This document shows positions 11,927 to 54,257 of a stretch of DNA of 64,000 bases, in pieces. The position numbers and the translations under genes were made by a program. The notes beneath the pieces were generated by a model that was not told the origin of the DNA, did not search any database, and worked only from the letters and a program-made list of their open reading frames with translations. The first letter of the stretch is position 1; the number at the start of each line of letters is the position of its first letter. This DNA is from Lepidodermella squamata (lineage: Eukaryota > Animalia > Gastrotricha), in contig JBLDXI010000001.1 in the NCBI GenBank assembly GCA_047495785.1, forward strand, positions 4,588,001-4,652,000, written 5' to 3'.

Positions 11927-12277
11927 TCACTGGCAGTTGTTATTCATGAAGTCAATTCGATTTTCCGGCTCCTCTTGGATGCATTTGCGAATTCGACCCT
12001 GTGAGTAGTCCGAGATGTAGAATGGCTTTCAAATGAGTTGGCTATATCATATGCTTACCGTGCTGTCGCAAGTTTCTCGACAGTCTGATTGTGTTAAATC
12101 GTCCAGCGCTGTGATTGCCATGAGCTCCAGCGCGGCTAGTTCAGCGTCGCTTAGCTCACTGATAGCTTTGATGAGCCTGTCTTGCCCAGCAATGCTGTCT
12201 TTGATAGGCTGGGGCAGAGTTCTTGCCACCAAAGCCGCGGCGAGTGCTGCAGGGATCAATAAGGCTATAGTGCACAT
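11927..12277 (-). CDS. Secreted 4-Cys family member A1; intron 12058-11999
   Basis: Signal peptide, acidic helix, then spliced CRETCDST|GRIRKCIQEEPENRIDFMNNNCQ*. TATA-like sequence near 12318. Confidence 0.85.
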
Positions 12278-12974
12278 GGTTTCAATATTTTAGAGATGCA
12301 CAGCTCAGGTCAGCATTATATATTAGGCTACCTGTCTTGAACTGGGTTGCTTAAGATAATTCAATTTCTAGTTTTTACGAAAACAGTATACGAGAATAGC
12401 AGTTCTATATTCCGGTGAGCAGACGGTTCTTCACCCACTAACTGCGCTAGATAATACTGTTATTAAGTTAAAACTTTCAGGGACGTGCAAGCAGTGACAG
12501 GCTGGGGCCTTGAGGCACATTATTTATCGTCCTCCAAGCGATTGGTGTCTAGGATCTGGAAATGGACACCTTGCCTCAACTCGCACAGTCAAGATATCGG
12601 GCTAAAGGTGGGTGCATGAGAAATCGACTGATATCTTACCTTATAAGGAAAACTTGGTGCCGCCTAGGGTCGTTGAGCGCTGAGAAAACAGGCAGTGAAG
12701 TTTCGCAAACGATCCAACAGCTGAACAATGTTTCGGATTTTAATGGCTAATTATGTACCCAGTGCATCATCAGAACCAGATGTTTGAAAAGCTATTTGTA
12801 AGACCTTTTCGGGTGATATCGGAGTATGCGTCCTCTTTATCATAGAACAACTACTCAACTACTTTTAGCATTCATTCTAATTTATTTTCACTGGAATACG
12901 GACATTAAAGTAAATTAATATAAGATGATTAGATGAATGTAGCGTCATTCGTCCAAGCATTCGTCATGCAATGT

Positions 12975-13330
12975 CTAGTTCGTAACTGCCTGAATACCGG
13001 AGTTACATCGTCTTTCGATATATCTTGAACGCTTTTCAGGAGATCTCTTGAGGCAGCGTCGAGTGTTCATCTGTAAATGCGGCGGGGGGTTAACAAGAAT
13101 TTGATTCGATTATTTGAACTTACTGCGTCTTTGCACCATGATTCGCACAATGTTTTAGTAACCTTGTCCAGCCCAGCAAAAGCTAATGCTTCGATTTCGG
13201 ATAGCTCGGCTTCGTTGAGAAATTCAAGGCCCTTGAGCATCCAATCTAACTCGGCGTCGAATCGATCCATCGGGGCTGTGAGACACGGAGCCATAATCAT
13301 AGCAATAAAAATAAAGAATTGAATATGCAT
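12975..13330 (-). CDS. Secreted 4-Cys family member A2; intron 13123-13071
   Basis: Signal peptide; spliced CESWCKDA|MNTRRCLKRSPEKRSRYIERRCNSGIQAVTN*. Confidence 0.85.
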
Positions 13331-13947
13331 TTTCGGGAATCGATTGAATTTCGGTTACATTCCGTCCCTTATATTGAGCATTGTCATGCACTGCTAACTC
13401 CCACTTCATAGACGACAGGATTTGTCACGCTGTAAATTTGTCGCAATGTAGCTCAGTTTGAAATAAATACTTGTCTGTAAATTATAACCTTCCAACGCAA
13501 TAGTTCAATATAGCCACGAGAGGACATGGGCGCTTTGAAGGTTTTAGGACTGTGGGTGCAAGTCTTTATATCGCAGACAATTAAATATCTGCCTCGGCGG
13601 GACGTTTCAGGTGTCTAGTTTCATTCAACAAAACATTATGAATCAAAGCTTTCCTACTATGTGTTGTCCTAGCAGCGTTTTTGCACCTATACAAAACAGC
13701 CAAACACTGTAATACGTAATTCGTTAATTGAGCGGCCCATAGTCCGATGTCCACGAGGCTTCATTTTGAGATATAAATCGTATAAATAATTTTATTTTCA
13801 AAAAGTTCAGCAAAACGTGTCACTGAGGCAAAACTAGGGGTTATCAACTACTGCGGATCGAATGGCACGGGCCAAATCGACCAATGTTGCATTGTTATCA
13901 GGACATGATAAATTGGAATTGTTCGTGCGTTTCTTGTATTCTGTGTA

Positions 13948-15688: not shown

Positions 15689-15772
15689 TACTTAATATTC
15701 AGTTCACGAAAATCTGATCTTCAGGAAGAAGTTGATAGGAATCCAATAGATTCACCAGGCGTGTTAGAAACT

Positions 15773-18348
15773 CTATATACGCTCGCATAGGCCACGAGTA
15801 CTGCTACCGCAAGATGATCGTCGAAGTTTACCGATGAAAAGCACAGCGCCTAAATAGCAAAGTAAGAATAATCTGAACTCAGAACATTTGTTTGTCTCAC
15901 AGTGTTGGTAGTTAATTGCTCCGCCGACCAATTCGAACTGTGAGTTGTTGAATGGCTGGCCGGTTATCCAAGAGTAATCATCCAGATTGGTTCGTTTTGC
16001 CCCGATAAAGGCTTGGGCGGAGGGAAGATTTATCACCCTCACAGCAGCGTCGTATGTCGCTTGATCCTTGATTACGGCCAACGATTTTGCGCGATCTTGG
16101 CAATACTTCGCCATTTCATCTCTCGTGCCTATTGTATTTGAGATCTCCAAGTCACCCAATGTCTGGAAATAATTGATTTTTATCGCGAGATTAGCCAATG
16201 GTGTGAGCCAAAACTTACAGCGCCAGAGCACAAGCCATTCTTCAAGAAGGTACAAACCGTATCCCCGAACCCACTTGTAGTAGCAAGAATGCCTGTAAAT
16301 ATCGGAGACAATTGATGAATTGATAGAAAAAGAAAGAGAAAGAGCTTCTACAACCTAGAACTAACAAGTGCCTTTGTCAGATACTTTGTGTCCCATAAGT
16401 AACGCAAACAAAGAAAATACACGGAAAAGGGTTCAGAAACTCAGAAACTCAGAAAAATGAGATACGAAGTCACATCACATGGCAAGAAAAATTCAAAAAA
16501 TCTCGAGAATAGTAATAAAGTATTTCGTTTGTTAATTAAAAAGTCCGGAGAAATTTGGTTCCAGAGAAAATTACCAAACCAGTTACCATCGGGGTTTTTC
16601 GAGTTTTCTCTCCGGTCAATTTTTGGTTTCTTCGGTTAAACCGAAGATGGAATAAATGATGGAATATTCTCTCGGTAGGTTTAATTAAATTTGATGAAGT
16701 TCCTAAAAGAAAGTTGCTCAATTTAAAATAGTAGCGCAACTACTGCATTTTTCACAAATGTCACGAAGCACGAACTCACATTCACCAACACCTGCTGGGT
16801 ACGTCCTTTGCCAAAAAGGCGAGTCGATTTTGACAACGCTATTATCAGCGTCCCACCTGAAATCAGCCACCAACCCAACGAACGCTGAAGCAGCCGCACC
16901 CTTAGAATTCACAATATTTAAAGCCGCATCGAAATCAGCCGGCGTGGAAAAAGTTGCGAGACGGCCGCCGTCCTTCTTACAAGCCTCTAACTGCAGGCCG
17001 AAGACGCCATCTTCGAGCGAGGAGAAGAAATACTTAGGAGGTGGGGCCAGGTCTTTCAAGCAGGCCGCGTGATTATCGGCGAATTTCGTCGAGTTAGCAA
17101 ATATTTTGACCTGATTTAAAGAATATGGGATAACTATTTTTCAAAAACTATTCATCTACTTACCACAGTTGAACCGGATGGACAGTTGTTGTAACAGTTC
17201 TTACTGGTTGAATTATCGCATTGAACAGCATTCTGAGGGAAAATTGAAGAAAATCATAAATAGAATCAGTATTTCTTTTACTTTACTTACCCATGATAAG
17301 CAGTTGGCTTTGTTGCGGTAAACACCAGTCGAAAATGCACTCGTTTCATCAGCGGCGCAGCCAGTGCTGCTGAGCCTACAGCCGGTAAATTCACGAGTGA
17401 CGGCATTGAAACATCGAATGTGAGGCTTCATAGAATCAGCAGCGTCGCCTGCAAAGAATTAAGGAATAAATATGTTGACTTTAGACTTTAGAAAGCCGAA
17501 AAGGCCCCGGTTTTTGGAGTCTAAACTAAAAACTCACGGCTAAAATTCCGAAGGCATGTGTCCAAACTTGAGTAAATCGCGGGAGATTTCGTCTAAAATC
17601 CCAAAAATTGAAGGAAAAATCACAATGAAAATCTAAAGAAATTATTACACCGCTTGGACACTGGAAATCGCTAGGAACACAGGTAATTAATTGTTGAGCT
17701 GCATCTACACAAGCGCTAAATTTTCGATTCTGAAAAGACAATTTTCATAAATAACTACAACAATTAGACGTCGAATTACGCACCGTGAAAGAGTTGTAGT
17801 CAATAGCACAAGCTGCAAGATTTGCAATAAATGGGAATGCTCCATTGTAAGATCCACCGACCTTGAAAATTGGAGACAGATAAAGGACAAATATTTAAAA
17901 TTAAACTTAAAAATGACAATAAAAAAGAATTAGTCAAGTTTTTGAATATTGATACTTACCATGATTTCATTTGTTTTCTCACAACCAGGATTGCCCGGCC
18001 GGCATGTCGCTGCGTAAGTGGCATATTTGTAACACAATCTAGCAGTCTGTTAACAAGAAATTTCCAAAAACACAATAGTAACGGAATTGGGAAATCATAC
18101 CGCTTTCATACAAGACGACCGATCCGCCACAGCGGTTCCAACCTGTAACATTGAAAAGCATGAGAGAAAAAGTGTTATCCAGTGTTGAGCCTCACCTGAT
18201 ATTCTCGCAATCGAGGGCAACCGTTAGGTAATTCGCGGCAATCGGCGAACGTGTCGTCGAATTGCGAGAAGCAACGAGCCCAATCGCCGCAATGCACTAC
18301 GCCGCTGGCAGCAATCAACGCAGCCATAACCGTGATTAGCAATTTCAT
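15773..18348 (-). CDS. Secreted multi-exon protein: repeated Cys-rich N-terminal modules plus two C-type lectin-like domains
   Basis: Signal peptide MKLLITVMAALIAASGVVHC; about 11 GT-AG-bounded exons; CTLD motifs ACKKDGGRLATF..AFVGL..FRW and YCQDRAKSLAVIKD..AFIGAKR..YSW..C..LCE. Exon chain assembled by eye. Confidence 0.75.
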
Positions 18349-19749
18349 TACCTTAGATTGGTTAAAAAAACTAAAATTGTAGATAATGTGGTAGTCTTTA
18401 CAATTTATTTTTTAATTTTTCTTATTTTTTAAAAGCATTTTATTTATTTTTTACTTTGTTTAAAATATATTCAAAGCAATGAGGTTTGGCATAAATGAGA
18501 TTTTAGAGAAGAAGCAAAAGCTCCAAACTCGAAAAAAGCAATAGAAAACGCCATTCGGAAACGTGAGGAACCGGTTAAAATGGCATATTATGTCTTGTTC
18601 ATCGAAAGTCATTAAATAAACTGAAAAATAATCCATAAAATAAAATAAAATAAGAGATAAAAATGATAACGTTAAAAAAGGTCACGCATATAGGGCGTCA
18701 TCGGTGATCGCGTGCGGAAGTGAAGCATCTCTCGGTGATTGTTGTTGTTCTCACTAATCTTTGAGGCGCGAGCCATTTTTAAATAAAAATTAAATTTTTG
18801 CCCTGGTTTTGAGGGCGAAAAAGTATTTTATTTTTACGGTCAGTTATTTCATTAAAATGCCTGGTCACTTACCATGAAATTAAAATGTTGTATATAATAT
18901 CAAAATGCGTTAGGTTTTATCCAACTCCTAACTAGCTAATCACCGAATCGTACCGTTATATAGATCGGGATAGCAAATTAGACCCTAGCTTCTTGCTTCT
19001 TCATGACTTTCTATTGATGATAGAATCATGCAACTTTATACTCAACATCAGATGGAGTATAGAGAACAAACGTGCGGAGACCTGTCAAATAAAAAAAATG
19101 TCAGTTAAAATTGAGTAAAATATGTGTTGAGAAATAGTAGGATTGGACCACGTTAAAATGCGGCTGCTTATTGAAAGCGGTAATTGGTCAGCCAACTTCA
19201 GCAACAGGGTTCATGGTTGGAACAAATTTCACCGGATGTTTTCTCAATTTATCGACCAGAGAATACTTGATTACTATTCTCATGATTTTTTTAACTTTTC
19301 TAAAAAATTTCTGGCCATGGTTTCATCTCTATAAAGATGAGATATGGCTCATGCCTATTCAACCGTGGCAATTTCGCAGGCGCAGTCGCTAGGTTATTTT
19401 CAAATTTTCGAAATGAAACCGTACGCTCATTTTTCAAATTGGATGCCACACAAGGGAAATCATGGCACAGTGAAACTCGAGGAGTCTTATGACATCAAAT
19501 GCGTTCAGGTTTCTTTTCGCTGTAGCCCTCTTGAAATGGACGTCAACTAATCCGACTTTCTCAACGAGGCTAACGATGTTAATATGTTGCATCATCATTT
19601 CTGCAAACGCGCTTCATATGAACGGCCAGATGTTTTATTTACTTTTATTGTCCTTGTTTCAAGATTCAAATTCAACACAGCTTAAACTCTTCATATCGTC
19701 TAACATCGATAAGTAGTATGAATCAGTCTGAACTACTTCGTGGAGCTGA

Positions 19750-20170
19750 TCAACTTTGAATACGCTCGCATAGGCCGGCCATGGTGGTATCAGCGCAAGA
19801 CGCTCGCTGAAGCGAGCCCGAAGATAGAACCACGCCTGGAAAAATTAATTGATTAAATCATCATAAGAAATTTGTTTTCCTTCCTAACAGTGATTTTCAA
19901 ATGTTGGATCGCCATTCAAAGTGAACAGCGTGCCGTTGAAGGGGTTGCCTGTTATCCAAGAATACGAGACCAAGTCCCTCCTTTTCCCACCAATGAACGC
20001 TCGTCTTCCCGGAACAAATTGTTTAGCAGCTTCGAATGTCGCTTGGTCTTTGATTGTGGCCAACGTTTTCGCCTTGCCAGCACAATAACCTTCCAGGAGT
20101 CCAGGAGCTGGGGTGTCGCGACAACCCAGCACCCCTGTACTCGCACCCTGTTCGCTACTCTCCTCTGCCT
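19750..20170 (-). CDS. C-type lectin-like domain, partial paralog of the last CTLD of 15773-18348; 5' end unresolved (possible pseudogene)
   Basis: YCAGKAKTLATIKDQATF..AFIGGKR..YSWITGNPFN; same final intron position; ends MAGLCERIQS*. Confidence 0.65.
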
Positions 20171-21339
20171 ATCACAAGCATGCACCACGGGATTTTGGTA
20201 CCAAAAGAAAGCTCACAAATTTCTGCATCGATCCGATTAGTATCTTTCTGGATTCTGAGGTCGGCAAATTGCGATGCAAATTGCGATGAATTTCATAGTG
20301 TAATCGGGTTAACAATCATGTCTGCGTACCTGGTTGGGAATGACGGAATCTTGATCCGTCGATGAAGCTAAAACAAGTGAGTTCTTGTTTCCCACTTATG
20401 ACCGATACGCTTGAACCATGCGCAACTTCGTTTATTAACCAAGGAATTTATCCATAATTAGGACATCGGGATAATACAATAAAGCATTATACCTACTGGT
20501 GTTTCAACCCTTTCATTATTCTGAATTTGTAAATGCACAGTAATTCGAATTTGACGATAATTGTTGATCGCCCGTTCGAGGAATACTACTTATTGATGTT
20601 CGCTATAGGAATTTCAACGAACGCACTGTTAATTGGCATGGTCAGTACGTGCTAGTTATTTTAATATAGTCTACCTGAGATTGAAATTTCGATTGGGAAT
20701 TACAGTGTTTTCTGATCATCTTATTTTGACCAAACAAAAATATTACTGTGTCCGTCATAGTCTCTTGACCTTTGTGTCGATTATTTTGAACTGGGAATTA
20801 AAAATGATGAAGCCATTGAAGTTTAATCAAACCGGTCGAAGTCGTCCTATCGGCCCAAACGTTGTACAGGCGAGATGCGTGTTTTTGTGCTTCGAAACAG
20901 CCGGGTGTAAAAAATCTGACTTGGCTGAATACTGATCAAAATGCTGATTATTGAAAACTGGTTTTAACTGATTTCTTTCCTCGGAATAATAAATGGAGAT
21001 TTTCAGGGACTGTTAGGGGAGAGACTTAGAACATATGAAAATTCAATGTTGAGAGCCTGATGCTGAAATTGCCGTAGTTCGATTCCCCATGCCTGCTGGA
21101 GACATTGCCATTTTGCTTGAGTTTTGGTTTTGCTGAAAATGGTGATGCGATCCACCGGAAATTTTTCTTCAAGCCGTTTATTGGATCTTTAAGATTGAAC
21201 AGTAGATAAAAATCATTCATCGTTAATGAATATTGCCGTGTTTAATATTATACAGGAGGAATCAACCCACTGTTTCTTCCTGGCTAGGAACTGAGTATCT
21301 TCAAAAAGCTACTTATTTAGCATATGCAGCCAATGATTT

Positions 21340-22753: not shown

Positions 22754-22761
22754 TATATAAA
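22754..22761 (+). promoter_or_regulatory. TATA box of knottin gene K1 (equivalents at 26973, 29857, 31182)
   Basis: TATA(T)AAA about 90-105 bp upstream of the ATG in all four knottin genes. Confidence 0.6.
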
Positions 22762-22848: not shown

Positions 22849-23085
22849 ATGCCAATGAAACTCTCAGCCTCAGTTCTGGTCGTCATTTTCATGCTGATGC
22901 AAATATTCATGCTGCAACAAATTAATGGCAACCCTTCAATATGCATCAAGCAGAATGGCTCCTGCACTTCCTTCACCCAATGCTGCTCCCAGTTAGTTGA
23001 TATGCCTTAAAAGTATTCAGTATTTCATTTATTTCGATTTTCGATGTTATCCAGTGTCTGTGATGAACAGTTCAACTGCGACTGA
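22849..23085 (+). CDS. Knottin (ICK) peptide precursor K1; intron 22992-23054
   Basis: MPMKLSASVLVVIFMLMQIFMLQQING-NPSICIKQNGSCTSFTQCCSHVCDEQFNCD*. Absent from the ORF track because it is short and spliced. Confidence 0.88.
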
Positions 23086-24081: not shown

Positions 24082-24455
24082 ATGATCTCAGTTACCATAA
24101 TTTTTATCATAGCCCTTGCTTCAGGTGTTGCCTTATCTCGACCTTTCAAAAGTGATTTGGATGGCCAGATTTTGGAGCGAAAATTATTTCTGATGGCGCT
24201 GAATGTCTTCAATGACACCTCACCAATTGAACTTGGAGCCAGAGCTGTTGTAGTACTCGATAACTATACGCGGAGGCAATGCCGAATGATCTGCCGAAGA
24301 GTAGTAAGAAAATATCGAAACCAAACAGTTTTGCCAACTTTATATGTTTTTTTTGTTAGCATGTTCGAAGTTGCCTTCGTGAGAAACCCGATGTCCGGCC
24401 AAAGTTTATAGAAAAGAACTGTGCATATTCTAAGAGTCAAGAGTATGCTTTTTGA
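24082..24455 (+). CDS. Secreted 4-Cys family member A3; intron 24304-24359
   Basis: Signal peptide; spliced CRMICRRV|HVRSCLREKPDVRPKFIEKNCAYSKSQEYAF*. Confidence 0.85.
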
Positions 24456-24752: not shown

Positions 24753-25046
24753 TTAAGAGATTTTCTCCGTTCTTAAGAGAATAGAAAACAGAACGTTCCT
24801 TAGACAGCTGCTTCGAATTATTTTCAAGCGGCGAGCGACAGACGGCTGACCCAGGCACTGTAGCATCCGAAAGTGGAAGCCAGTGAAGCAGCGCACGCAC
24901 AGGTCACGTGAAATCTCGCCGATCCCAGTCACCGATTTCCGTAATTCTGACTCTGCAGAATGTTTCGACTGTGTTGAAGTAGTAGTGCACTGCATTACAA
25001 AGGAGAATATCAGTATTCCGTATAAGATGAATAGCGAATCTGACAT
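24753..25046 (-). CDS. Secreted intronless divergent 4-Cys protein B1
   Basis: Signal peptide; CVRC-x10-CLGQPSVARRLKIIRSSC; close paralog at 35516-35812. Confidence 0.8.
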   Translation of the reverse strand: MSDSLFILYGILIFSFVMQCTTTSTQSKHSAESELRKSVTGIGEISRDLCVRCFTGFHFRMLQCLGQPSVARRLKIIRSSCLRNVLFSILLRTEKIS

Positions 25047-32045: not shown

Positions 32046-32324
32046 TCACTTGTTGAATTCGTTTGGAAGGAACAAAGCGAGACCGCCGTGTTGCAGCTCG
32101 AACGCGGTGGCGCCTTCAGCCTGATGGAAATATTCAGTTTGTCCGATGCAGGGCGTTTTGAACGACACCGAACCTCGCCATGTCTCTTCGTGGTTCGAGC
32201 AGCGATTCAGCGAGTGAAAAATCGCATCATTGAAGACTCTGTTATGAGCTATCGCAGGTCTGCATGAGACATGATTCACAGAAGAAGCAATAAACAATAG
32301 CGCTATAAGAAGCAGGCTCGTCAT
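32046..32324 (-). CDS. Secreted protein C4: N-terminal module of the long 4-Cys subfamily only
   Basis: SCRPA...RVFNDAIFHSLNRCS...TPCIG aligns with SCRP...RLSDTIFQALKQCS...TPCVG of C1-C3. No 4-Cys domain found downstream. Confidence 0.65.
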   Translation of the reverse strand: MTSLLLIALLFIASSVNHVSCRPAIAHNRVFNDAIFHSLNRCSNHEETWRGSVSFKTPCIGQTEYFHQAEGATAFELQHGGLALFLPNEFNK

Positions 32325-34513: not shown

Positions 34514-34944
34514 ATGCTTTCAACTAGCGTAATGTTTATCATAGCTATTGCTTCAGGTGTTGCCTTATCCCGGCCCTTCAAAACTGATTTGGATGGCCAG
34601 ATTTCAGAGCGAAAGTTATTCCTGGTGGCGCTGAATGTCTTCAATGAGTCTCTAACGGCTGAACTTGGAGCTAGAACTGTAGTAGTACTTGATAATTTCA
34701 CGCGAAAGCAATGCCGAATGATCTGCAGGCGAGCGGTAAGAAAACTATTGAAATAGCATCTTCACCCGATTTATCCCATCCCATTTTGTAGAAGGTTCGA
34801 AGTTGCCTTCGTGAGAAACCTGCCGTTCGGCCGAAGTATATGAAAGCGAATTGTATAGATTCTACGAGTCGCCCAACTCTTCAAGAGTATGATTGCTTTT
34901 TATCTTATGACAATTCTCTTCAACTTCTGCTATTTCAGCATTGA
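34514..34944 (+). CDS. Secreted 4-Cys family member A4 (duplicate of A3); intron 34736-34791
   Basis: Spliced CRMICRRA|KVRSCLREKPAVRPKYMKANC, then an extended tail. Confidence 0.85.
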
Positions 34945-35515: not shown

Positions 35516-35812
35516 TCATTTCATTTTCTCCAACCTCGAGAGAATAGACAACAGAAAGCTTTTTTGGCAACTGCTTCTTATTAAAGTCAAGCGACGAGCG
35601 ACAGATTGCTGACCCAGGCACTGAAGCATTCGTAAGTGAAAACCGGTGAAGCAGCGCACGCACAAATCACGTGAAATTTCATCGAAACCATCCATCGAAT
35701 TCCGAAATTCCGATTTGGTGAAATGATTCTCCTGTGTAGAAATAACGCATCGGGCTAAAAGAGAAAAACTTATAATTCCGCTGAAGATGAGTAAAGATTT
35801 CGAGTAAGCCAT
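35516..35812 (-). CDS. Secreted intronless divergent 4-Cys protein B2
   Basis: EISRDLCVRCFTGFHLRMLQCLGQQSVARRLTLIRSSC; paralog of B1; TATA near 35868. Confidence 0.8.
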   Translation of the reverse strand: MAYSKSLLIFSGIISFSLLARCVISTQENHFTKSEFRNSMDGFDEISRDLCVRCFTGFHLRMLQCLGQQSVARRLTLIRSSCQKSFLLSILSRLEKMK

Positions 35813-37146: not shown

Positions 37147-37515
37147 ATGCGAATCTACCTTATCCTAACTTTTATTTCTGCCGCGTTACGAGTTTCGCAG
37201 TCTGCTTTTGGTTTGTTACTTGATCTCAACAGCGAAGCGACCACTCTTGAGCTCGATGGGCAAACAACTGCGACTGCAAATACAAATCCTGTTGTCCTGT
37301 GGCGCAGGATGGCGATGATAAATAGAGCTTTGCGGACGCAAATATCTGCTGATTTATCAACCTTTATAAAGGATGGGCGAATGGCATTGGCTGGCCAACA
37401 GCGGTTAAGTGTCGCTTCGTCAATGCTGCAGCTGAAAATGCAACGACCACGAAAGAGTGAAAGCCGAGGCCGTATTGTTGTCACAGGATCTTTCGATGTC
37501 AGCATTCCAAAGTAG
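37147..37515 (+). CDS. Secreted linear-peptide precursor F2
   Basis: MRIYLILTFISAA...GLLLDLNSE...GRIVVTGSFDVSIPK*; AATAAA near 37566. Confidence 0.85.
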   Translation: MRIYLILTFISAALRVSQSAFGLLLDLNSEATTLELDGQTTATANTNPVVLWRRMAMINRALRTQISADLSTFIKDGRMALAGQQRLSVASSMLQLKMQRPRKSESRGRIVVTGSFDVSIPK

Positions 37516-39954: not shown

Positions 39955-40455
39955 TTAGGATAATCGGTGTCCGCAGCTTACTGCCAGATACTTCATTCTA
40001 CTGCCAGGCTTCCTTTGGAGGCAACTTCGCTTTTTGCCCTGAAAAATGGTTTAGCAAGGTTACTGATAATAAATAATGCAAGAGCTTACCGCAGATTTGC
40101 AAAGCTTCCGACACTGCGACGCGGTCAAATTTTCGATAGCTGCAGCCGCCCTTGCTTTAGATTCAGCGATATCGGCGTCGCTTAGAAATACCAAGTTTGG
40201 ATTAACGGGTTGAAGACCCAAGCTGTCGACCTGCGGGAAGTCGACGCGAACCGGGGACAATTGGAAGGAGTCGAGTCTTCCAACACAAGGCGTGTTAGCA
40301 TGGCTCGAGGAACCTTGGCTTGCCTCGAATTTGTAACTCGAACACTGTTTCAGAGCTTGAAATATTGTATCGCTAAGCCGGGCGCTGTTGATTGAGCTAA
40401 TAGGCCGGCAACTAGCCATGCTAGCAATGCACAGAACCAAGAATATCGCTCTCAT
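39955..40455 (-). CDS. Secreted 4-Cys family, long form C1; intron 40089-40039
   Basis: Signal peptide, 2-Cys module, then CRKLCKSA|GKKRSCLQRKPGSRMKYLAVSCGHRLS*. Confidence 0.87.
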
Positions 40456-42129
40456 ATGATTCACAGCTAAAAAGTGAAAAGTGCATCTTGGGAAAATTGT
40501 TTCGCATTTCGAGGTGAGTACACAGGAAGTGTCGAAAGATTTACCTCTTTCTAAGTTCTAAGAGGGGGTAGTGGCGTTAGCTTGATATTGTCAGGTTTAG
40601 TTTATTTTCCAAAGGGCAACCATAAATATAATCAATAGCGAGCGAAGCTATGAAATGGTGGTATTTTCAAGTTTTACGGACTTAACGGTTTTACGGTTTT
40701 ACCGAGGCGTCACTCATGTGTTGGTGAAACCTGGGTTATCCAGCCAAGGACAGTGGCGGCCCACAGACCCAGGACGCCCGGTCGATATTTTGCGCACAAC
40801 TTTTGAAATTCAATTTCTGAGGCGTTTGATGGGCATGTTCGATAGAAAATTACGAAAATAGTGAAGCTATTGCGGAAAGTACGGTAGCCAAGTGGAGTGC
40901 GTGAAGATACACTTATCACTTCGAGGTTTTTGCATTTGCAATCAGTGTAGAAGCTGGGGATTTCACCAAAAGGGGGATATAGGCCTCCCCTTTCCCCTTA
41001 CATCACTTCGTAGAAAATTTGCGATGAAAACAAAAATACTAGGTAAATTACAAATACTATAAAAATTGAATTGATGAGCGATTAAAAACGAATTCGTGAT
41101 AAGAAATAAAGTCATGCACTTGTTGTTCGCTCAGCCCAGGGAAATGACTGTTTGTGAGCAACCCTTAGGATATTTTGATTAAATTTTCAATTTTTCACGT
41201 GCAAAGGACGAGAGTTCGAAATTCACCGTCTTATTTCCGTCAAATCAAATGACTCCTCACTCTCGTCCTCATTTAAAATAGGAACGCGACAATCAGCGGC
41301 GAATCAGTCCTCTTTTTGGACGCTTCCTGCGAGGCCTTCCATATCGCTACACAACGCGGAGTGGGCGGCGGATCGACTTGCATAAATATTTAGAAACTAT
41401 TTAATGACGATCGGTCAGCCAGTTATACTTGAATATTAATCTTGAGTTGCGGAGGTGCCCGAACAATTGACCATGACGTCGAATTCAATGCTGTTTCGAT
41501 TAGTGCTGTTCTAGGGTCGCAGCTAAAGCGTAGCTACGATTTCTCTTAGTTGCTTAGGATAAGTTTGTTAGCCCAATCTATTCGTTTTTGTGAAAGATTC
41601 GAAAATTATTAGATGAAAGGACCCATTGCGACTGTTGAATGAAAAATGATCTCAGGCGAACAATAGTAATTTGGATAATCTTTTAGATCAATGATCTTCG
41701 GCTTTTGGCGACATTCGTTGAACATTGTTGAAGTTTGAACTTTATTGATAGACTAAAATTGAGGTTTGTTGAGTACTCGGATGGTTTCGGAGACTTGCGA
41801 AAGAGGAATGAATGAACTCCCCATCCCCCCGCTACTTCCTTAACTCTTAAGGTTCATAGTTCATGAAAGAAACACGAATCATATCATTATACTATTCAAC
41901 TTCGGCGGCGTTAACCAGGAATCATGATGAACTTCCTGTGCATTACAGCTGATCAGCATTCGTCAGAAACTTTCTCACAACAGAGCATGATCAGAATACT
42001 CGCAAAATACCTGCCGCAATATTACTGAAAAGTGCTGAAAACAATCGTTTTACTAGGACTATGGACTATGAGAAGCGTCATCAGCCTCGGGAATGATTAC
42101 GATATAATATCGTGAATTTGGTCCTTGGA

Positions 42130-42654
42130 TCACTGGTATCCGCAGCTTACTGTCAGGTACTTCATTCTACTGCCTGGCTTCTTCTTGAGGCAAGTTAGCT
42201 TTTTGACCTGAAAATTGTGTTGCAAATCTTTTTGAAACAATTTTTTTTTGAAAGAGCTTACCGCAGATTTGCATACTTTCCGACACTTTTTCGCGGTCAA
42301 TTTTGTCATAGCTGCAAGCACCTTTGCCTTTGACTCAGCGATTTCGGCATCGCTTAGAAATGCGAAATTTCGATCGTTGGGTTTAAAACCAAAGCTGTCG
42401 ACAGGCAGGACTTCGCCCGGAACCGGGTTTAATTCGAAGGAATCGAGTCTCCCTACACAAGGCGCATTAAGGTAGCTCAAGGAAGCCTGACTTGCTTCGG
42501 CTTTGTAAGTCGAGCACTGTTTAAGAGCATGAAATATTGTATCACTGAGCCGGGCGTTGTTGATTGAGCCACGAGCCCGGCAACTAGCCATGGTAGCAAT
42601 GCCGAGAACTAAGAATATTGATATCATAGGATATAGGATCCACTCGGACTGCAT
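42130..42654 (-). CDS. Secreted 4-Cys family, long form C2; in-frame 54-nt intron 42261-42208
   Basis: CRKVCKSA|VKKLTCLKKKPGSRMKYLTVSCGYQ*. Confidence 0.87.
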   Translation of the reverse strand: MQSEWILYPMISIFLVLGIATMASCRARGSINNARLSDTIFHALKQCSTYKAEASQASLSYLNAPCVGRLDSFELNPVPGEVLPVDSFGFKPNDRNFAFLSDAEIAESKAKVLAAMTKLTAKKCRKVCKSAVSSFKKKLFQKDLQHNFQVKKLTCLKKKPGSRMKYLTVSCGYQ

Positions 42655-44418: not shown

Positions 44419-44912
44419 TCATCGGTGTCCGCAGCTTATTGCCAGGTACTTCATTCTGCTACCAGGCTTCTTCTGAAGGCAACTGCGCTTTTTGGCCTGA
44501 AAATTGTGTTGCAATTTAACTGAAAATAAATAATACAAGAGCATACCGCAGATTTGCAAAGCTTCTGACACTGCGATGCGGTCAATTTATCTATAGCTGC
44601 AACCGCCATTGCCTTTGAATCTGCGATTGCGGCGTCGCTTAGAAATGCCAAATTTCGATCGCTGGGTTTAAAACCAAAGCTGTCGACCTGAGGGAATTCG
44701 CCGTGAACCGGGATCAATTCGGAGGACTCAACTCTCCCAAGACAAGGCGCGTTAACGTAGCTCGAGGAAGATTGACTTGCATCGACATGGTGATTCGAGC
44801 ACTGCTTAAGAGCCTGAAATATTGTATCACTGAGCCGGGCATTGTTCATTGAGTTATAAGGCCAGCAACCAGCCATGCTAGCAATGCTGAGAACTAAGAA
44901 TATCGCTCTCAT
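44419..44912 (-). CDS. Secreted 4-Cys family, long form C3; intron 44546-44497
   Basis: CQKLCKSA|AKKRSCLQKKPGSRMKYLAISCGHR*. Confidence 0.87.
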
Positions 44913-45277: not shown

Positions 45278-45445
45278 GACTTTTCTACGCTCATGAAGGC
45301 CTAAGAGATGAAGTCGAGCGGCCAACCGTGGCTGCAAGTGGCTTCTGTGATACAGCGTTAGAAAAACCAACCTAGCGGCAAAAACAACGGGCACGGTCGC
45401 ATTGTTGTCGCCGATTCATTCGATGTGATTGATATTCCTAAGTGA
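45278..45445 (+). pseudogene. Pseudogene remnant of the F family (F4)
   Basis: Translates DFSTLMKA*EMKSSGQPWLQVASVIQR*KNQPSGKNNGHGRIVVADSFDVIDIPK*; two premature stops and no 5' half. Confidence 0.8.
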
Positions 45446-45850
45446 AATAATCCAATAAAAAAACACACCCTGAACCTTGACCTTCGAAATTTCCGAGTCG
45501 ATTACATGATACACTGATGCGAAAGATGACAGAAATGCGAGATTGATATTCTCATCTCAGACGGGCAAAGAGATAGGGGGACGACTATGAACAGCTTGAT
45601 AGGGTGAATAAAGGGCTGAAATCGACCACTGTTCACTGAAATTACTTTAAAAATGGGAGAGAACAACGCTGAGCAAATAAATTTCACGAACAAGTATAAT
45701 GTAATTCATAATAATCTTCGCAAGCAGATATAAAATACCAAAAATGCTGTCTTTATTTTGTGGCAATCAAGGACACCACAGCGGACACCTTACGGGCAAG
45801 CTCATGGTGGTATGTCGCTTTCCGCTTTCCGATTCAATTTTCGAATCGTC

Positions 45851-48815
45851 TCACTCCATCGCTGAGGACGGCGAAAATCGCAGTCTGATGTGGTTTACTG
45901 TATTAGCCTCGACGGTCGCAGCTACTGATGAATCATTCTGGCTTACTATGGCAAGCGGCATCATCACAGCAGTAGAATGACAGCCTCTCCTCATCTGAGA
46001 CTTGAACTCTGCCTCATCTCTGGTCGTTCTCACGCGCAATTCCATCGTCAGAACAATGAGCGAGATACAAGCAAGAGCTAGCGAAACACCCGATACGGTC
46101 AGCATAAGATGGTGGGCGTTCGTAGACTGAACTACGACAACAAGCATCGACCCGCCGAGAAGAGCCGTCATTTCGCAATAGATCACGATCCCAGTTAATG
46201 AGTAGCGCAGAGTACGTTGCGACTTTTTCACGATCTGGTGAGAATAATATCGAATTTCAGTCATTCAGTCACATCTTCGCCCATACTTACCTGGAAAATT
46301 TGTTGCACTGATCTAATTGTAGCAATACCTATTAGCGCCTGAAGCAAGATGAGCTGAAAAAACGACAGAATTGCAGATGAGTCGTCGAGGTTCAGTCGAC
46401 AGTAGAACTTTGTTTCAAGGTAAACAAGATCAGGGTCGATATCCGAAGCTCTCTTTCCAGTAACAATGTCCGTGAAATCAACCATAGGAAGCAGCGAGCC
46501 GAGAAGAGGCGAACTGCCAGCTACCCATAGTACAGTCATCAAGATCTGCTTCAAATAGTGCACGCGCATGAGTTTTCTTCGTTTCTTCTTAGCGTTGAAT
46601 AGTGTTGATCGCATCTTTATGAAGTTCCCCGCCATTAGCGAGCAAATTCCAGCAAATACTAGGGTTCCAAAAACGTGGCAGGTTACCAATGGTTGGAAAT
46701 TGTTCGAAACCGGTAACACATAGCTTTGAATGAATAGAAGTACAGTGCCTATTAATGGTGAACGATTTTCGGCGATTATTTCCGCTTCGTTCGTAGTTGG
46801 ATCGAGGTCTTTCGGCAGAATTAGAGCTAGTAGCGGAGCTGGCGGGAACATCATTAACAGAGATGCGAAAATTCCTATCGTTCCAATTGCTTTAAATTTG
46901 CAAAAAATTAGTTGTGTTATTTGTTTCAAACATCTTCATTACCTGCCAGTACTCCATAAATTATTGGTGGAATAAGGGGTGCGACCAGTTTTTTATACGT
47001 GAAAGAATCCGCAAATGGTTTACCATTGCGCCGCCACGCTACAGCACTAGCGAAAATCTCTGGTGGCTTGTTACCATGAGAATCGTAGACCGCAACCGTT
47101 TTAGATTTGAAACTACTCGCGCCATATTTTTGCATCTGTTTCAAAACCACCGGTGAAAAGCCAAGAGTATCCCGCTTTGTCTCGGAGCTGAACAGATGAG
47201 TACCGAGGAGACCCCTAACCGTAGGCATGGAAAACAGAGCTTCGTCCATTGCAGCTTTGAAAATGTCAGTATTTTCGACGTTCAACTCAGAAGTCCAATT
47301 TTCTAGGCTTTTAATTCCTACGATTTGGCTCACTCGCTCCAACCACATTCCGACGAATAGAGTTTGATCGTACATATTACTGGAAAACATTTGAGGATAC
47401 TGAATCCCTGTTACTTTACTGAGAATTGAAGACTTGAATGCAGAATAGGTTAACCCAGTTGAATCGGTGGAAGTGATGTTGACATCTTCCATCGTCCCGT
47501 CTCCAAAATAGAAAACACTCTGGACCATACCAGCTAAATCTTCACAGCTACAAGACGTCATACCAGGGTAGCAATTCTTCGGATGTGTACTGTCTTCGTA
47601 GACATTTGAAGCGAAAAATGCGTAATGGGCCTCGGAAAAGCCGTGTTGGTATAAACTGCAGAGAAGCAACGCGACCGAGTCTGAAATAAAGTAGATGATA
47701 CGGGCACCACTCGCTTTAATAAGTTCTACAGCTCGATTGATCTCTTCCAAGTTGTCAAGCTGCATCATCTCGGCAACTGCGACAACTTGAATGCGGCGTT
47801 GGTCTAGCTGGCGGATGAGATCGCGAACTGTATAGTAATAGCTGATGCTGCTGATGATAGCAACTTTCCGCCAATGCCACTGCTGTGGAAAATCGGCTAA
47901 TGCTGTGTAGAAGCTATCACGGGTTGGGGAGATTGGGTAGGTATTTGGATAGAGTATGCTATTAGCAACCACTTCAACACTGCATGTGAAAGCGAAAGTC
48001 TGAAAATTGATCGAAAGTGAAATAGGAAAGTAAACAATCATCACCGATTAGTGCGCGAATCACCAGGAGAAATGGGGATTTCGTACCTAACATTTCGCAA
48101 GGCCAAGGTAGGAAACCCCAAATAAAACCACAGGGGGACCCTTTGGTCATATAATGTGGGTCCCTACATCGAAGATCCTACTTCGCGCAATGTCAGCGCT
48201 CCTATAGAATATTTTGCTCATCTGATGATGAAATAAATTCAGAAGATATCTGACGTATACTTACCGAAATCAGACCCAAAGGCTTTGCAGCAAGCGAAAA
48301 TATGCGTTGGATAGCTTCCAAGCAAGGCGACAACAAAATAATCGGGAGTCTAGGAGCTCGGCCACCCTCTTTCATCGTACCGAACAAACCCTTGAAGGAT
48401 AGACCATCCAAGCTCTGAAAATGGCTTGACGTTCTCATCTAAAGTCTCATCTAAACTCTCTTACCTTGTCGTCAATCATTTCGAAAACAATCTCGTACTT
48501 CTTAGTGAAATTCACCACAAATTGTAACCGGTCGAGAGCCATTTGTATTGCACGGGTCGTAGATGGGCCCATCAAGCTTCGTTCGAATCTATCCGAGTAG
48601 CAAACTGACGTGAGGATTGCTAGCACGATTTTATCATCAGAGGATTTGTCAAAGAAGTCTGATGATGCGACGTAGTTAGGCATCGGCTCGTCGACACTTG
48701 ATTTTTCATAATAGAAAGATCTGTTCTTCACACTGCTACGGAAGTTTTTAACATTAATCGCGCTTGTAGTTATAACAAGGCAAGCATTAACAGCTGCAAA
48801 TGTTATTGAGCCCAT
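45851..48815 (-). CDS. Divergent class C GPCR-like receptor (Venus-flytrap/ANF-receptor ectodomain plus multi-TM region); multi-exon
   Basis: Signal peptide; AIQMALDRL; QWHWRKVAIISS; ELIKASGARIIYF; MYDQTLFV; followed by several hydrophobic helices in ORFs 46261-46929 and 45851-46264. Confidence 0.7.
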
Positions 48816-48930
48816 TTTTCGCTGTTCAGTTGCGCATGTATAGCAATATTATGGTCAAATTGCAAATGTGAACGAGTCTATTTTATCGGAACAATCCCGA
48901 CTACGCATAATATTTAACGAAGAAACAAAA

Positions 48931-49126: not shown

Positions 49127-49663
49127 AGCATAAAATCGCAAGATAAACCAGGCAATTTAGGCGTGATAACATGATGATAAGCGTCACATAAGAACTTCAT
49201 CAGAACTTCATTTTCCTCAATGTAATATGTAACATGAAGACACTAGAGTGTGTTGCAAAATGTGAGAAATGAAGGATGAATATTAGCTATTGGCGCATTT
49301 TTATACATGACAAAATATATTCCTCCTCGTGAGGCGCTATGTTTTCTTGTTTTTATGTTAAAGCTTATTCAATATTTTAACATTCTAAACATATGCAATA
49401 TGCGTTTCCAACTGCTACGTAAAAACCGTTTCCAAAATATTGGTTTAACAAATGTTTCATGGATCGCAAGATTCAAAAGTAGCTCGGCGAAGTCATAGAC
49501 CAGCTGGGCAACCAGCGCGCAGATTATTTTCAACCCACAGCCTTAACGCAACAGGTGCGCGACACGCTGACTTTCCGCTATCCTCATTATCACCACTTTC
49601 AAGCGAATTCTTCATGGGTTTCAGTTTCGTCACCGATCCAGTCAATTCCGTTTTAGGATTTAA

Positions 49664-50155
49664 CACTTTAACTGCCAAAAATATACTGCGAGATCCGATA
49701 CTTGGATCCGAATTTTGGAGCTGTCAAAGTTTCCTTAATTAAAGGTGAAAGACGCTTCGTAGGGCTAAACTCTTGGCGGGGAAATAGGAAATGTAAGCCA
49801 TGACTAAGGAATTCTGGCGACACCAAATTCATGGCTCAAAACATCATGGCACAGGAATCAATTCGAAAGAATTGCAAACTTACAATTATTGTTGCGCCTC
49901 AATCTGCGTCTAATAATTGGGTCAAATTCTTAGGTCTGATTTCTTGATCTAATTCAAATTTTTCAGTTTTTCTTCAAATTGATTCCTTTGAAATCCATGG
50001 TGTTTTGAGCCATGAATTTGGTGCCGCCAGAATCCCTTAGTCATGGCTTACATTTCCGATTTCCCCGCCAAGAGTTTGGCCCTACGAAGCGTCTTTCACC
50101 ATTAATTAAGGAAACTTTGACAGCTCCACTATTTGGATCCAAATAGTGGACTCGT
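49664..50155. mobile_element. MITE related to 4296-4800 (same left end and core), right end degenerate
   Basis: TTAA|CACTTTAACTGCCAAAAATATACTGCGAG; long internal inverted arms; shared core GTCTAATAATT..AATTCTTAGGTCTGATTT. Confidence 0.8.
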
Positions 50156-51054: not shown

Positions 51055-52455
51055 GGCAAAGAAGAAATGGAGAACCGAGATAATATGTTTTTCATTGTGT
51101 CGTATATATAAGCGCGAAAAATGTCTCCGCAGTTGATTGACAAGATGCAAAGATTAAGAAATTTAATTTCGATGTAATTGAATTCAAAGTCTGTTGCGGT
51201 TGTCTGATTCGATAATAATATGAAGCCTCTTTGTTTTGAGTACCTGACCACAAATTCGACACTAAAGCGACTCTAATGGCAGGCACGCTATTGTCACTTC
51301 CGTTAAACAAACTTAGTTATCGAAAATACCAGAAGACATGTGATTAATCCGCCCGGGTTCCAATCAGCAATTCATTTTCAAAATTTAATGACATCTTAAT
51401 GCAATTTCAATTTTACAATTGGTCTTACTTGATGATAACTCGTTGGTACAATGCTGCTGTTCGCCAGTCATTTACTCAAAATTGTTTCAATAACGTCTCA
51501 CCCAATCAATTCCTAATTCCTCTTCACTTGCATTTTATTAATTTTTACAAACCTTCTAACTCGATGATGTTGAACGTCCATTCACATTGAAATGTTTTTC
51601 GGGACGTCATGCCGAAAACAGAAAATAGCACATCATATTCAATTGCTGTCAGGTCTTTGTTTTGAAGAGCAATTGAAAAATTCATCAATGATGTCTCTTC
51701 GGCCAGACAGTTTCAGATTTGCCCAGTTTAAACGATTAATTTGATTCGCCACGCTTGGTTACGCGTTACGCTCAAGTAACAACTTATAATTGCATAGTCC
51801 CTTTCTGTACCGCAGACATTGTGACCGAATTTAGTTATATATAATTACCGTATTTCCCGATAAAAGGCAAGGGATTGAGCACATCGATAAAATAAGGAAC
51901 TGTGCTCTTTCGTGTAATACGGCAGTAATCAAATTTGATAGACAGCAATCACTGGTTTCCCTTTTCCCTAACTCTTAAATTACATAGAGACATGAGTCAA
52001 CGCTTAATTTAGATAAGTGTAATAGCTGTGCAATTTAGGAGCATGTAAGCCTTTGTTTATGACGTAATGCGTCTCCACGTAGGGATCATTCGAACAAAAT
52101 ATTCTTAGGTTTTGTTCTTTAAGAAAGTGCTTGGAAGGTATTGAAAGGTGCAGGTCATAGATCACACGTGCCCACATGATCAACGCGTGTGGTTAAAACT
52201 TGAAACGCAAAACTTACCGTACAGTCCTTATTTTTCGCGCACAAAAAAATTTAGGTTCCCTTGTTGATCGTTATTTCTCTTTAAACTTTGAAAAATAAAT
52301 AAATTATATGAGGGATTGCAAGCGATTTCGGCCCTTCCTCTATATTCTTTGGAAGGGCAACAGCTGGCGCGTAATCAATGTTGCACAACAGCCAATTTCA
52401 GGTAGAGATCTTTCCAAAATCGCTTTCATATGGCTTTTACCTTTTAATCCGGGTG

Positions 52456-52956
52456 TTATTTATTTATTTATTTTTATTTAAGAGCCATTCATCCGTTTTT
52501 GGAAAAAGTTGGAAAGCTCAGCTGTAAAAAAAGATAATGGATTAGTTAGGGTTTGATCAAGCTGTACACAAAATTAGGTAGTTATAAAACATCGTGTAAC
52601 TTATATGTCTAAAAAAGAAAAAAGCTCAGTTTAACAACAAAGAAAACAATGTTAGTTTGTACGATCAATATAAAAATATAACAATTAAGATGCTTGTCTT
52701 CAGGTTTCCGGCTACGGTACAAGAGTTAAGTTCTTTTTGTTGTGTTAGCAGGTGACGGTAAACCAAGTTTCTGCATTGGTCGGCAGTTTTGGATGTGCGG
52801 ATGTGGTCGGGGAGAGAATTCCAAAATACCGATCCATGGTCGCTGACTTGGTCCTGGGCACCTCCAGGATGTTTGAGAGTGCTTTCAGGGCGTTTTGCTT
52901 ACGGGTAGAAGCCATTGGTGCGGTTCGGAGTTTGAAGAAGTTGGCTATGGCTACCG
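52456..52956 (-). mobile_element. Second, shorter 5'-truncated copy of the same LINE
   Basis: Reverse complement matches about 27805-28329, including VAIANFFKLRTAPMASTRKQNALK, the 3'UTR and the (TAAA)n tail. Confidence 0.92.
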
Positions 52957-53881
52957 TCATGTTCTCTATTGAACATAGAGTACAACAGCCTATTAGACCG
53001 CTCGTCTATTGGTAACAATTTAAAATTTAACTTTACAAAGTCAGTTTTGGCATGAGACGTACAAAGGACGCCGCGGCTTCGAAGCTTCCATTACATGCGC
53101 GATGCAGTGTAAAGATGTGTTGATCTCGTTGATCTTAAGCAACAAATAAGCTCAAGATATTTTAAGATGAGTGCAAAAAGTGTAATGAGATGATTCATTG
53201 GTCGAGCTGGAACTTTGGACCTCATTGAAAACACGCCTTTCTGATTTTCTGCAAGCGGCGGCATCTTATATTACGCCTCATGAGTTTTGGGGGCGAACCC
53301 AGCTTAGTATATATTCTTGTCCTACCTAATTTGTTAGCCTTCTGCGAACGATCGTTTTAGTGAATAAGTTGAGCATTCCGAGATATGTTCCCGGTTGATC
53401 GAGCCATCGGCCATCGGTATAGGGTTTTAAAATAAAAAATACATGGCCCGCTAATGCTCTCTGCGCCCGAAGGTATAGGTATATGAACTACGCAGAATTC
53501 GCCAATCCTTTCTCAGCGATAGAGAAAATTACTTCTGTGGGAGAACTTGTTACGCTCGGAACATTTTTAATGGAATATTGAGAGACTTTTCAAAGCATTA
53601 CCAGTTTAAATGTTCTGGTGGAACTTGTGGAAATGGGAAGCTATAGCTCTGATTTCACAAGGCATGCGAAAATTCAAGTAGGTCCCAATTTTTTAATATC
53701 AGCACAAATTTTATTTAGATGTATTACGATGATGCATACGACAAGGTGATACTCCATTACAATTGAGATATCAGTGTAAGTATACTAATGTACAGTAATA
53801 ATTACATATATTAAGTTCAGTGCTTGTTAGAGGAACGCAAGCTTTGTAGTTTGAGGCCAAGCCCAGCTCATCGGTTGACTG

Positions 53882-54257
53882 TTAGTTTAACCTATTCCTT
53901 CCGGAGCTACAACGAGTCCCAATGAAGTCAGGTCGATGCAGTGGTTTCTTTTTCAAGCATCTTCGAATTTTCTGCTAAAATCAAAGCTCAATAAAGAAAA
54001 TGTTCAGAGACTAACAAGGCGAAACTAACCATCCGCTTACAAACAGTGAAACACATTGAGCGAGTGAGCTGATCCAAAGCTTTAGTGGCCATAGCTTCCA
54101 CTTCCATCAGCTCATCATCAGTGAGGCTATGCAGTGCGGTGGGATAAGCGTCGAGGATCATCGCAGTTTCACTGTCAGGCCAAAAGGGCAGCGAAAAGGT
54201 CCGAACCACCAGAGAAGCAAAAATGACCAATGGGAAAAGTATCATAATCCAGCGCAT
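53882..54257 (-). CDS. Secreted 4-Cys family member D2; intron 54029-53975
   Basis: CFTVCKRM|QKIRRCLKKKPLHRPDFIGTRCSSGRNRLN*; shares DDELMEVEAMATKALDQLTR with D1. Confidence 0.85.

What the first reader, a model, noticed from the sequence alone, without database searches (positions are those of the whole stretch)
11927..54257. Unassigned secreted family with C-x3-C-x7/8-C-x15-C and an invariant intron
Seen: nine intact genes (A1-A4, C1-C3, D1-D2) with low overall identity share a signal peptide and an acidic amphipathic stretch (approximately LSDxELxxxExxAxxALDxLT). All end in a C-terminal domain approximately C-x3-C-x7/8-C-L-x3-P-x2-R-x2-[F/Y]-[I/M/L]-x3-C. A phase-0 intron sits exactly three codons after Cys2 in all nine. 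The domain is strongly cationic in most members but near neutral or acidic in A1. I do not recognise it as a named family. Inference: a disulfide-stapled helical toxin, antimicrobial or pheromone scaffold, possibly held latent by the acidic segment, although no conserved dibasic cleavage site separates the two parts.
Basis: partly seen in the sequence, partly recalled or inferred. Interest (0 to 1): 0.85.

Follow-up and report, generated by a model that had tools for sequence, protein, structure and literature searches.

The report
Orphan four-cysteine helical secreted peptide family
Nine intact genes in one stretch of a small invertebrate's genome encode an undescribed family of small proteins, predicted to be secreted, helical and held by two disulfide bonds, that likely act as defence peptides on negatively charged microbial surfaces, and their acidic segment is likely part of the fold rather than a safety catch.

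Summary
Nine intact two-exon genes share C-x3-C-x7/8-C-x15-C and a 50-60 nt GT-AG phase-0 intron three codons after Cys2 (0 matches in 60 random windows). They form five subfamilies (25-36% identity between, 65-73% within), and all five close pairs show dN/dS below 1. No relative turned up in 5.8 billion proteins, 1.84 billion representatives, Pfam, PDB or the ESM Atlas. Splicing is unconfirmed.

The latency idea is not supported. Acidic-segment and Cys-domain charges vary together (rho +0.74), not oppositely; 6 of 9 have no dibasic site; the acidic half is barely amphipathic.

G1 and G2 keep the acidic part without the Cys domain, F matches the C-group N-terminal extension, and intronless H1/H2 may be distant members (inconclusive). 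The genes lie among four knottin-pattern peptides and C-type lectins.

Best reading (0.4): uncleaved, all-helical, two-disulfide secreted effectors whose cationic face attacks microbial surfaces; toxin (0.25) and signalling ligand (0.2) remain open. This is a new framework of a known kind. The scan's earlier notes hold no look-alike on other DNA.

The parts
11927..12277 (-). A1: exon 1 12277-12059, 60-nt intron, exon 2 11998-11927; 96 aa; acidic throughout (pI about 4.3 after the signal)
12975..13330 (-). A2: exon 1 13330-13124, 53-nt intron, exon 2 13070-12975; 100 aa; Cys domain +7
24082..24455 (+). A3: exon 1 24082-24303, 56-nt intron, exon 2 24360-24455; 105 aa; spacing 3-7-15
34514..34944 (+). 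A4: exon 1 34514-34735, 56-nt intron, exon 2 34792-34944; 124 aa; fifth Cys in a longer tail
39955..40455 (-). C1: exon 1 40455-40090, 51-nt intron, exon 2 40038-39955; 149 aa; F-like two-Cys N-terminal module plus core
42130..42627 (-). C2: exon 1 42627-42262 (another in-frame ATG at 42654), 54-nt stop-free in-frame intron, exon 2 42207-42130; 147 aa; Cys domain +12
44419..44912 (-). C3: exon 1 44912-44547, 50-nt intron, exon 2 44496-44419; 147 aa
50678..51054 (-). D1: exon 1 51054-50824, 53-nt intron, exon 2 50770-50678; 107 aa
53882..54257 (-). D2: exon 1 54257-54030, 55-nt intron, exon 2 53974-53882; 106 aa
55291..55506 (+).
   Evidence: local score 75, 0 of 1000 shuffles; tblastn E 4e-5 in the window
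57836..58012 (-). G2 (missed): 58-aa paralogue of G1; its frame ends earlier after a deletion relative to G1
   Evidence: pN 0.25, pS 0.71 against G1
32046..32324 (-). F (missed): 92-aa single-exon ORF with a hydrophobic N-terminus, homologous to the N-terminal extension of C1-C3, without the core
   Evidence: hhalign probability 92.5, E 4.8e-7
35516..35812 (-). H1 (missed): intronless 98-aa ORF, C-x2-C-x10-C-x16-C, tail-to-tail with A4; possible distant member (inconclusive)
24753..25046 (-). H2 (missed): intronless 97-aa paralogue of H1, tail-to-tail with A3; Cys domain 89% identical to H1, dN/dS 0.06

Best explanation
These nine genes are a tandemly expanded, lineage-restricted family of small proteins, predicted to be secreted, all-helical and stapled by two disulfides, that likely work uncleaved as defence effectors whose cationic face binds negatively charged microbial surfaces. 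Shown: gene structure, common ancestry, open frames, dN/dS below 1, charges, no conserved dibasic site, modular neighbours (F, G) and a neighbourhood of other small secreted genes. Predicted: signal peptides, helices with a break just after Cys3, disulfides. Inferred: after signal removal, an Ala-rich helix opened by the L-S-D-x-E cap packs against the Cys1/Cys2 helix. A turn at the Pro after Cys3 would fold the last helix back so that Cys4 staples it (pairing unknown; Cys2-Cys4 fits hairpin geometry). Surface charge was tuned over the whole protein, from acidic A1 to basic C2. The basic members would bind and disturb anionic envelopes; A1 would have another target or partner.
For: Real coding genes: whole-gene dN/dS 0.28-0.67 in 5 of 5 close pairs, and intron lengths differ by non-multiples of 3 in some pairs (C1/C3, C2/C3, D1/D2). 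TATA-like boxes lie 43-56 nt upstream in 5 of 9. Both AlphaFold models are helix-break-helix with the break right after Cys3. Cys domains have pI 9.7-11.6 in 8 of 9. Charges of the two parts co-vary, 6 of 9 have no dibasic site, and the acidic helix is conserved within pairs (88% in D1/D2): this fits one folded unit, not propiece plus payload. Neighbours include four peptides with the knottin spacing 6-5-0-3-5 and weak C-type lectin hits. Known invertebrate defence peptides pair anionic N-terminal and cationic Cys-rich C-terminal regions (periculin-1; passages of PMC11767717).
Against: No activity, expression or cDNA data. The Cys domain is conserved within pairs (dN/dS 0.12-0.41), not hypervariable as in many arms-race peptides (compare MgCRP-I, abstract only). 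Its hydrophobic fraction is low (0.15-0.30) for a membrane-lytic peptide. A1 is acidic. Models have low pTM, and the C2 model carries the 18 intron-encoded residues. Knottin spacing and lectins also fit venom or mucus. Non-dibasic processing cannot be excluded.
Confidence: 0.4

Rival explanations
1. Venom or predation-gland toxins acting on ion channels or membranes of invertebrate prey, through the invariant Arg and a basic-plus-aromatic pair on the last helix.
For: R-x2-[FY] in 9 of 9. Four knottin-pattern genes are interleaved. Cationic helical disulfide toxins are known from nemerteans (B-IV, A-III, parborlysins; passages of PMC6410017), and two-disulfide hairpins block K+ channels (passages of PMC7191063).
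Against: No similarity to any solved toxin by sequence. No positive selection seen. The host's diet and glands are unknown. A1 is acidic.
Confidence: 0.25
2. Signalling ligands (pheromones or hormone-like proteins), each subfamily with its own receptor; charge differences encode specificity.
For: Old subfamilies (25-36% identity) with conserved Cys domains inside each. Charge ranges from -2 to +12. C-x3-C-x8-C spacing recalls the CHH/ITP C-terminal half and the insulin A chain (recalled, from no call).
Against: The six-Cys CHH signature (PMC7560641 passages) is absent. There is no CC pair, no conserved convertase site and no Pfam hit. The neighbours look like bulk secretions.
Confidence: 0.2
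3. Structural secretion (glue, mucus, egg or surface coat) in which acidic members (A1, G) and basic members condense electrostatically and are cross-linked by disulfides.
For: Acidic A1 lies directly beside basic A2. A4 has an unpaired fifth Cys. Cys-free cationic-tailed neighbours (E family) are present.
Against: No repeats or low-complexity composition. A fixed even Cys framework suits intramolecular bonds.
Confidence: 0.1
4. One reading: the acidic segment is a propiece that keeps a cationic 35-40-residue peptide latent until it is cleaved off.
For: Acidic-then-cationic order is clear in A2, D1 and D2. Acidic pro-peptides can silence antimicrobial peptides (abstract of PMC6057973). A3, A4 and C2 have a dibasic pair just before Cys1.
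Against: Charges co-vary instead of compensating. Six of nine have no dibasic site. The acidic part survives without a payload in G1/G2 with pN below pS.
Confidence: 0.15

Closest known systems
Cysteine-stabilised helical hairpins: plant alpha-hairpinins, kappa-hefutoxins, OmTx, conotoxins flf14/vil14
   Same: Four Cys, first pair C-x3-C, predicted helix-turn-helix, mostly cationic
   Different: Second pair is C-x15-C, not C-x3-C; an extra conserved N-terminal helix; about 80-130 residues after the signal, against 22-50
Nemertean A-toxins and parborlysins; neurotoxin B-IV
   Same: About 10 kDa, secreted, Lys/Arg-rich, helical, disulfide-bonded
   Different: Six or eight Cys there, four in the core here; no sequence similarity found; no C-terminal amphipathic lytic helix in the nine
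CHH/ITP superfamily and HAND toxins
   Same: Secreted, helical, about 70-80 residues; C-x3-C-x8-C spacing (recalled)
   Different: Six-Cys signature absent; Cys4 lies 15 residues after Cys3; no Pfam match
Anionic-then-cationic defence precursors (Hydra periculin-1 and arminin; cathelicidin- and defensin-type propieces)
   Same: Signal, acidic segment, cationic C-terminal region in A2, D1, D2
   Different: No conserved cleavage site; charges do not compensate; periculin has eight Cys
Nematode Cys-stabilised AMP groups (CS-alpha-beta/ASABF, nemapores, diapausins)
   Same: Small secreted Cys-bearing peptides in gene clusters
   Different: All need six or more Cys; two groups have beta-sheet; here four Cys and predicted all-alpha
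Mussel MgCRP-I (orphan family found by mining)
   Same: Lineage-restricted multigene family of short secreted Cys-rich peptides
   Different: MgCRP-I has six Cys and a hypervariable mature part (abstract only); here the Cys domain is conserved within pairs

Membership tests
alpha-hairpinin / kappa-hefutoxin helical hairpin | Motif C1-x3-C2-xn-C3-x3-C4 (PMC7191063 passages) | tested here: not met
   C3-x15-C4 in 9 of 9
alpha-hairpinin / kappa-hefutoxin helical hairpin | Disulfides C1-C4 and C2-C3 | not testable with these tools
   The fold tool returned no Cys contacts, and no spliced protein was folded
alpha-hairpinin / kappa-hefutoxin helical hairpin | Helix-loop-helix fold | tested here: inconclusive
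   Two helices predicted, pTM 0.37 and 0.42; only generic helical matches
CHH/ITP/HAND | Six conserved Cys, three disulfides (PMC7560641 passages) | tested here: not met
   Four Cys in the core; the two extra Cys of C1-C3 lie in a separate F-like module
CHH/ITP/HAND | Profile match to the family | tested here: inconclusive
   No Pfam or PDB hit, but queries were single exons, exon alignments or the intron-retaining C2 frame
Nemertean A-toxin / parborlysin | Six Cys, three disulfides (PMC6410017 passages) | tested here: not met
   Four Cys in A1-A3 and D1-D2, five in A4
Nemertean A-toxin / parborlysin | About 10 kDa, basic, helical | tested here: met
   pI 9.1-9.6 after the signal in 6 of 9; helices predicted; a general resemblance only
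[quoted passage not shown] | At least six Cys in a group-specific array (PMC10506718 passages) | tested here: not met
   Four-Cys core; host not shown to be a nematode
ShKT domain | Six-Cys array (recalled) and Pfam ShK match | tested here: not met
   Four Cys; no Pfam hit at E<=1; no PDB hit for C1 exon 2 at E<=10
Insulin-like peptides | A chain CC-x3-C-x8-C plus B-chain Cys (recalled) | tested here: not met
   No CC at Cys1 in any of nine; no upstream Cys in the A and D groups
Acidic-propiece antimicrobial precursors | Acidic segment that offsets the charge of the cationic peptide | tested here: not met
   Charges co-vary, rho +0.74
Acidic-propiece antimicrobial precursors | Conserved processing site before the mature peptide | tested here: inconclusive
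   No dibasic pair in 6 of 9; other proteases cannot be excluded without MS
Acidic-propiece antimicrobial precursors | Antimicrobial activity | not testable with these tools
   Needs assays

The most novel reading that the evidence does not exclude
The window is a venom or defence-gland gene island of an animal group with no described peptide arsenal. It is built from a new two-disulfide helical scaffold whose modules shuffle (core alone in A and D, F fused to core in C, acidic part alone in G, intronless H). The acidic members A1 and G are in-trans partners or antidotes of the cationic members, in place of a cleavable propiece.
Probability: 0.15. Interest if true: 0.8.

Novelty: new variant of a known kind. 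Interest (0 to 1): 0.5.

Why it matters
Small disulfide-stabilised helical scaffolds are a main source of antimicrobial and ion-channel leads, and this Cys framework matches none of the families compared here. The family gives a natural series on one scaffold from net acidic to +12, with module-only neighbours. That makes it directly testable whether an acidic N-terminal segment is a latency device or part of the fold. It would also show what secreted effectors look like in a lineage with no annotated close relative. Orphan Cys-rich secreted families are common in poorly sampled invertebrates, which limits the surprise until a function is shown.

Tried and rejected
Homology searches, all negative. 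5.8-billion-protein search with the 17-row exon alignment: 0 of 3909 candidates at E<=1. Same search with H1/H2: 0 of 118 at E<=10. Full HMM scan of 1.84 billion representatives: 3 hits, all long repetitive proteins, rejected. Pfam: no hit above cut-off for any family exon or for E, F, G, H, B. PDB sequences: 0 hits; 4 weak matches to a generic helix cap, rejected. ESM Atlas: best 0.85 (bacterial, unnamed) and no usable hit; this shows neither absence nor novelty. Metagenome contigs with D1 exon 1: 0 of 453 pattern matches confirmed. These searches used exon pieces or the intron-retaining C2 frame, which lowers sensitivity.

Expression. No RNA holder was listed. Run X1 covers introns and intergenic DNA alike, so it behaves as DNA, and may be the window's source; X2 laid only 3 contigs, by short pieces. 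No whole genome is held, so family size outside the window is unknown.

Host. The PKD2 neighbour is at most 47-49% identical to named animals and 58% to one unnamed record. A quick tree of 44 of the 120 listed hits, picked by hand, leaves it on a long unplaced branch.

H1/H2 membership. 6.5-7.5 bits, reached by 4-11 of 2000 shuffles, also with Cys fixed; but hhalign E 0.18, and unrelated six-frame segments reach 7.0 bits among 2854. Left inconclusive. G1 was mis-framed and corrected. The E family showed no convincing link to the core. Recalled resemblances to ShK, CHH and the insulin A chain failed on Cys number and profile searches.

Literature. Seven searches listed no paper on this framework. 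They target comparison families, so they do not prove it is absent from print. No supplements were read; predicted-peptide tables, such as those of PMC10506718, could hold relatives. Earlier scan notes: no look-alike by sequence or place; the two word matches are unrelated bacterial cases.
Full report
Observation. All have open frames, phase-0 GT-AG introns of 50-60 nt, and Cys spacing 3-8-15 (7 of 9) or 3-7-15 (A3, A4). A tightened pattern matched 9 times in the window and 0 times in 60 Markov windows. Leaving each subfamily out of the HMM still scores it at 49-71 bits, so this is one family. It has five lineages, 25-36% identical between and 65-73% within. Nei-Gojobori dN/dS is 0.28-0.67 over whole genes and 0.12-0.41 in the Cys domain for 5 of 5 close pairs (few codons, no significance test; two short-region values in C2/C3 and one in A3/A4 exceed 1). 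Splicing is inferred: no RNA data were available. The C2 intron is in frame and stop-free, so retention is possible there.

The full C-terminal motif fits 7 of 9 and the acidic consensus fits A3/A4 poorly. The segment before the Cys domain is strongly acidic in only 4 of 9. Its hydrophobic moment is low (0.04-0.28); it is better described as an acidic helix start followed by a small-residue apolar stretch, which suggests a buried helix (inference).

Latency test. If the acidic segment neutralised the cationic domain, the two charges should be anticorrelated. They are positively correlated (rho +0.74, n=9; +0.97 over five subfamily means): A1 is acidic in both parts and C2 has the most basic domain with a neutral segment. 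The sample is small and related, so this counts against latency without excluding it. Six of nine have no dibasic pair between signal and Cys1; A3, A4 and C2 have one just before Cys1.

A catalogue of ORFs with hydrophobic N-termini and tblastn show modules of the family on their own. G1 (55291-55506) matches the N-terminal and acidic part of A2 (0 of 1000 shuffles; it matched none of the other eight) and has no Cys domain. Its paralogue G2 differs with pN 0.25 against pS 0.71. F (32324-32046) matches the two-Cys N-terminal extension of C1-C3 (hhalign 92.5%), so the C genes are F-like module plus core, or F lost its core. H1 and H2 are intronless four-Cys genes (C-x2-C-x10-C-x16-C) lying tail-to-tail with A4 and A3 in a duplicated block (repeats D4 and D5). 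Their link to the core is suggestive by shuffles but at noise level by rank and hhalign, so it is left open.

Structure. AlphaFold2 on the intron-retaining C2 frame gave helices 23-79 and 82-92 (pLDDT 77, pTM 0.37). On H1 it gave helices 3-42 and 45-73 (pLDDT 71, pTM 0.42). Both break just after Cys3. No beta strand was predicted. The C2 model cannot show true Cys geometry, and fold searches were uninformative. All-alpha is therefore a prediction, and the disulfide pairing is unknown.

Context. The host is a compact-genome invertebrate with no annotated close relative: its PKD2 is under 50% identical to named animals and sits on a long unplaced branch. An earlier scan note calls the genome nematode-like; I could not confirm that. 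Interleaved with the family are four genes with knottin spacing 6-5-0-3-5 and a phase-2 intron, C-type lectin-like genes (weak Pfam hits), and three intact Cys-poor genes with basic tails plus a remnant. The region reads as a cluster of small secreted products (inference).

Comparison. No database returned a relative. Against defining features read in passages of reviews, the family fails the alpha-hairpinin/hefutoxin motif (PMC7191063), the six-Cys CHH signature (PMC7560641), the six-Cys nematode AMP arrays (PMC10506718) and the six-Cys parborlysin pattern (PMC6410017). It resembles in kind the anionic-then-cationic periculin layout (passages of PMC11767717) and cationic helical nemertean toxins. 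For PMC6057973 I saw the abstract and outline only, and for PMC4558851 the search listing and start of the abstract. ShK, insulin and CHH spacings are recalled.

Mechanism and verdict. Most likely (0.4) these are uncleaved, two-disulfide helical proteins, secreted with other effectors, whose basic face binds anionic microbial surfaces, the acidic helix being structural. Against this stand the conserved rather than hypervariable Cys domain, its low hydrophobic content and acidic A1. Prey toxin (0.25), signalling ligand (0.2), cleaved latent peptide (0.15, overlapping the first two) and structural secretion (0.1) remain. It is a real, apparently undescribed Cys framework of a familiar kind, with no functional evidence yet: new variant of a known kind, interest 0.5.

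Noticed in passing
window 22849-23085, 27064-28410, 29953-30189, 31286-31522 (+): Four two-exon genes (57-60 aa) with a hydrophobic N-terminus and Cys spacing 6-5-0-3-5, the knottin (ICK) pattern, and a shared phase-2 intron. No Pfam hit for exon 1 of the three tested. Notable if the host is a nematode.
   Followed up: partly
window 27235-28340 and 52473-52956: The 1164-nt intron of the second knottin gene holds an ORF that looks like the 3' end of a LINE reverse transcriptase (by inspection; no Pfam hit), with a repeat tail. An inverted copy lies between D1 and D2 (I3-I5).
   Followed up: no
window 33154-33534 (+), 37147-37515 (+), 60355-59942 (-), remnant about 45323-45446 (+): E family: three intact single-exon, Cys-poor ORFs of 122-137 aa with a hydrophobic N-terminus, a conserved start after the signal, a basic stretch and a conserved C-terminal tail; a fourth copy is a fragment with a stop. 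No Pfam hit.
   Followed up: partly
window 24084: One X1 contig (depth 104) reads T for G at the third base of A3's ATG, which would remove that start codon in that haplotype; 411 other differences were not shown.
   Followed up: no
window 40473-40514: An X1 contig at about half depth skips 40 nt just upstream of C1, likely a heterozygous deletion.
   Followed up: no
window 15773-20250 (-): Multi-exon C-type lectin-like genes (Lectin_C E 1.6e-5 and 0.009). X1 depth there is up to 6700, so the genes or repeats within them are highly multicopy.
   Followed up: no
window 1949-3549 and 6185-7416 (-): Two paralogous genes with long predicted coiled-coil ORFs (365 and 300 aa) and hydrophobic segments, with no family above cut-off. 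By inspection they could be membrane-inserting helical proteins.
   Followed up: no
window 8671-11500 (+): Polycystin-2-like channel gene with most of its coding sequence in one 643-codon frame; used for the clade test.
   Followed up: yes
window 45851-48848 (-), 38353-39024 (-), 62988-63317 (-): An ANF-receptor-domain gene with transmembrane segments sits between C3 and D1; also a CBM21 gene and a divergent nuclear-receptor zinc finger.
   Followed up: no
window 4292-4804 and 49656-50150: Two related MITE-like elements with 156-171 nt inverted arms.
   Followed up: no
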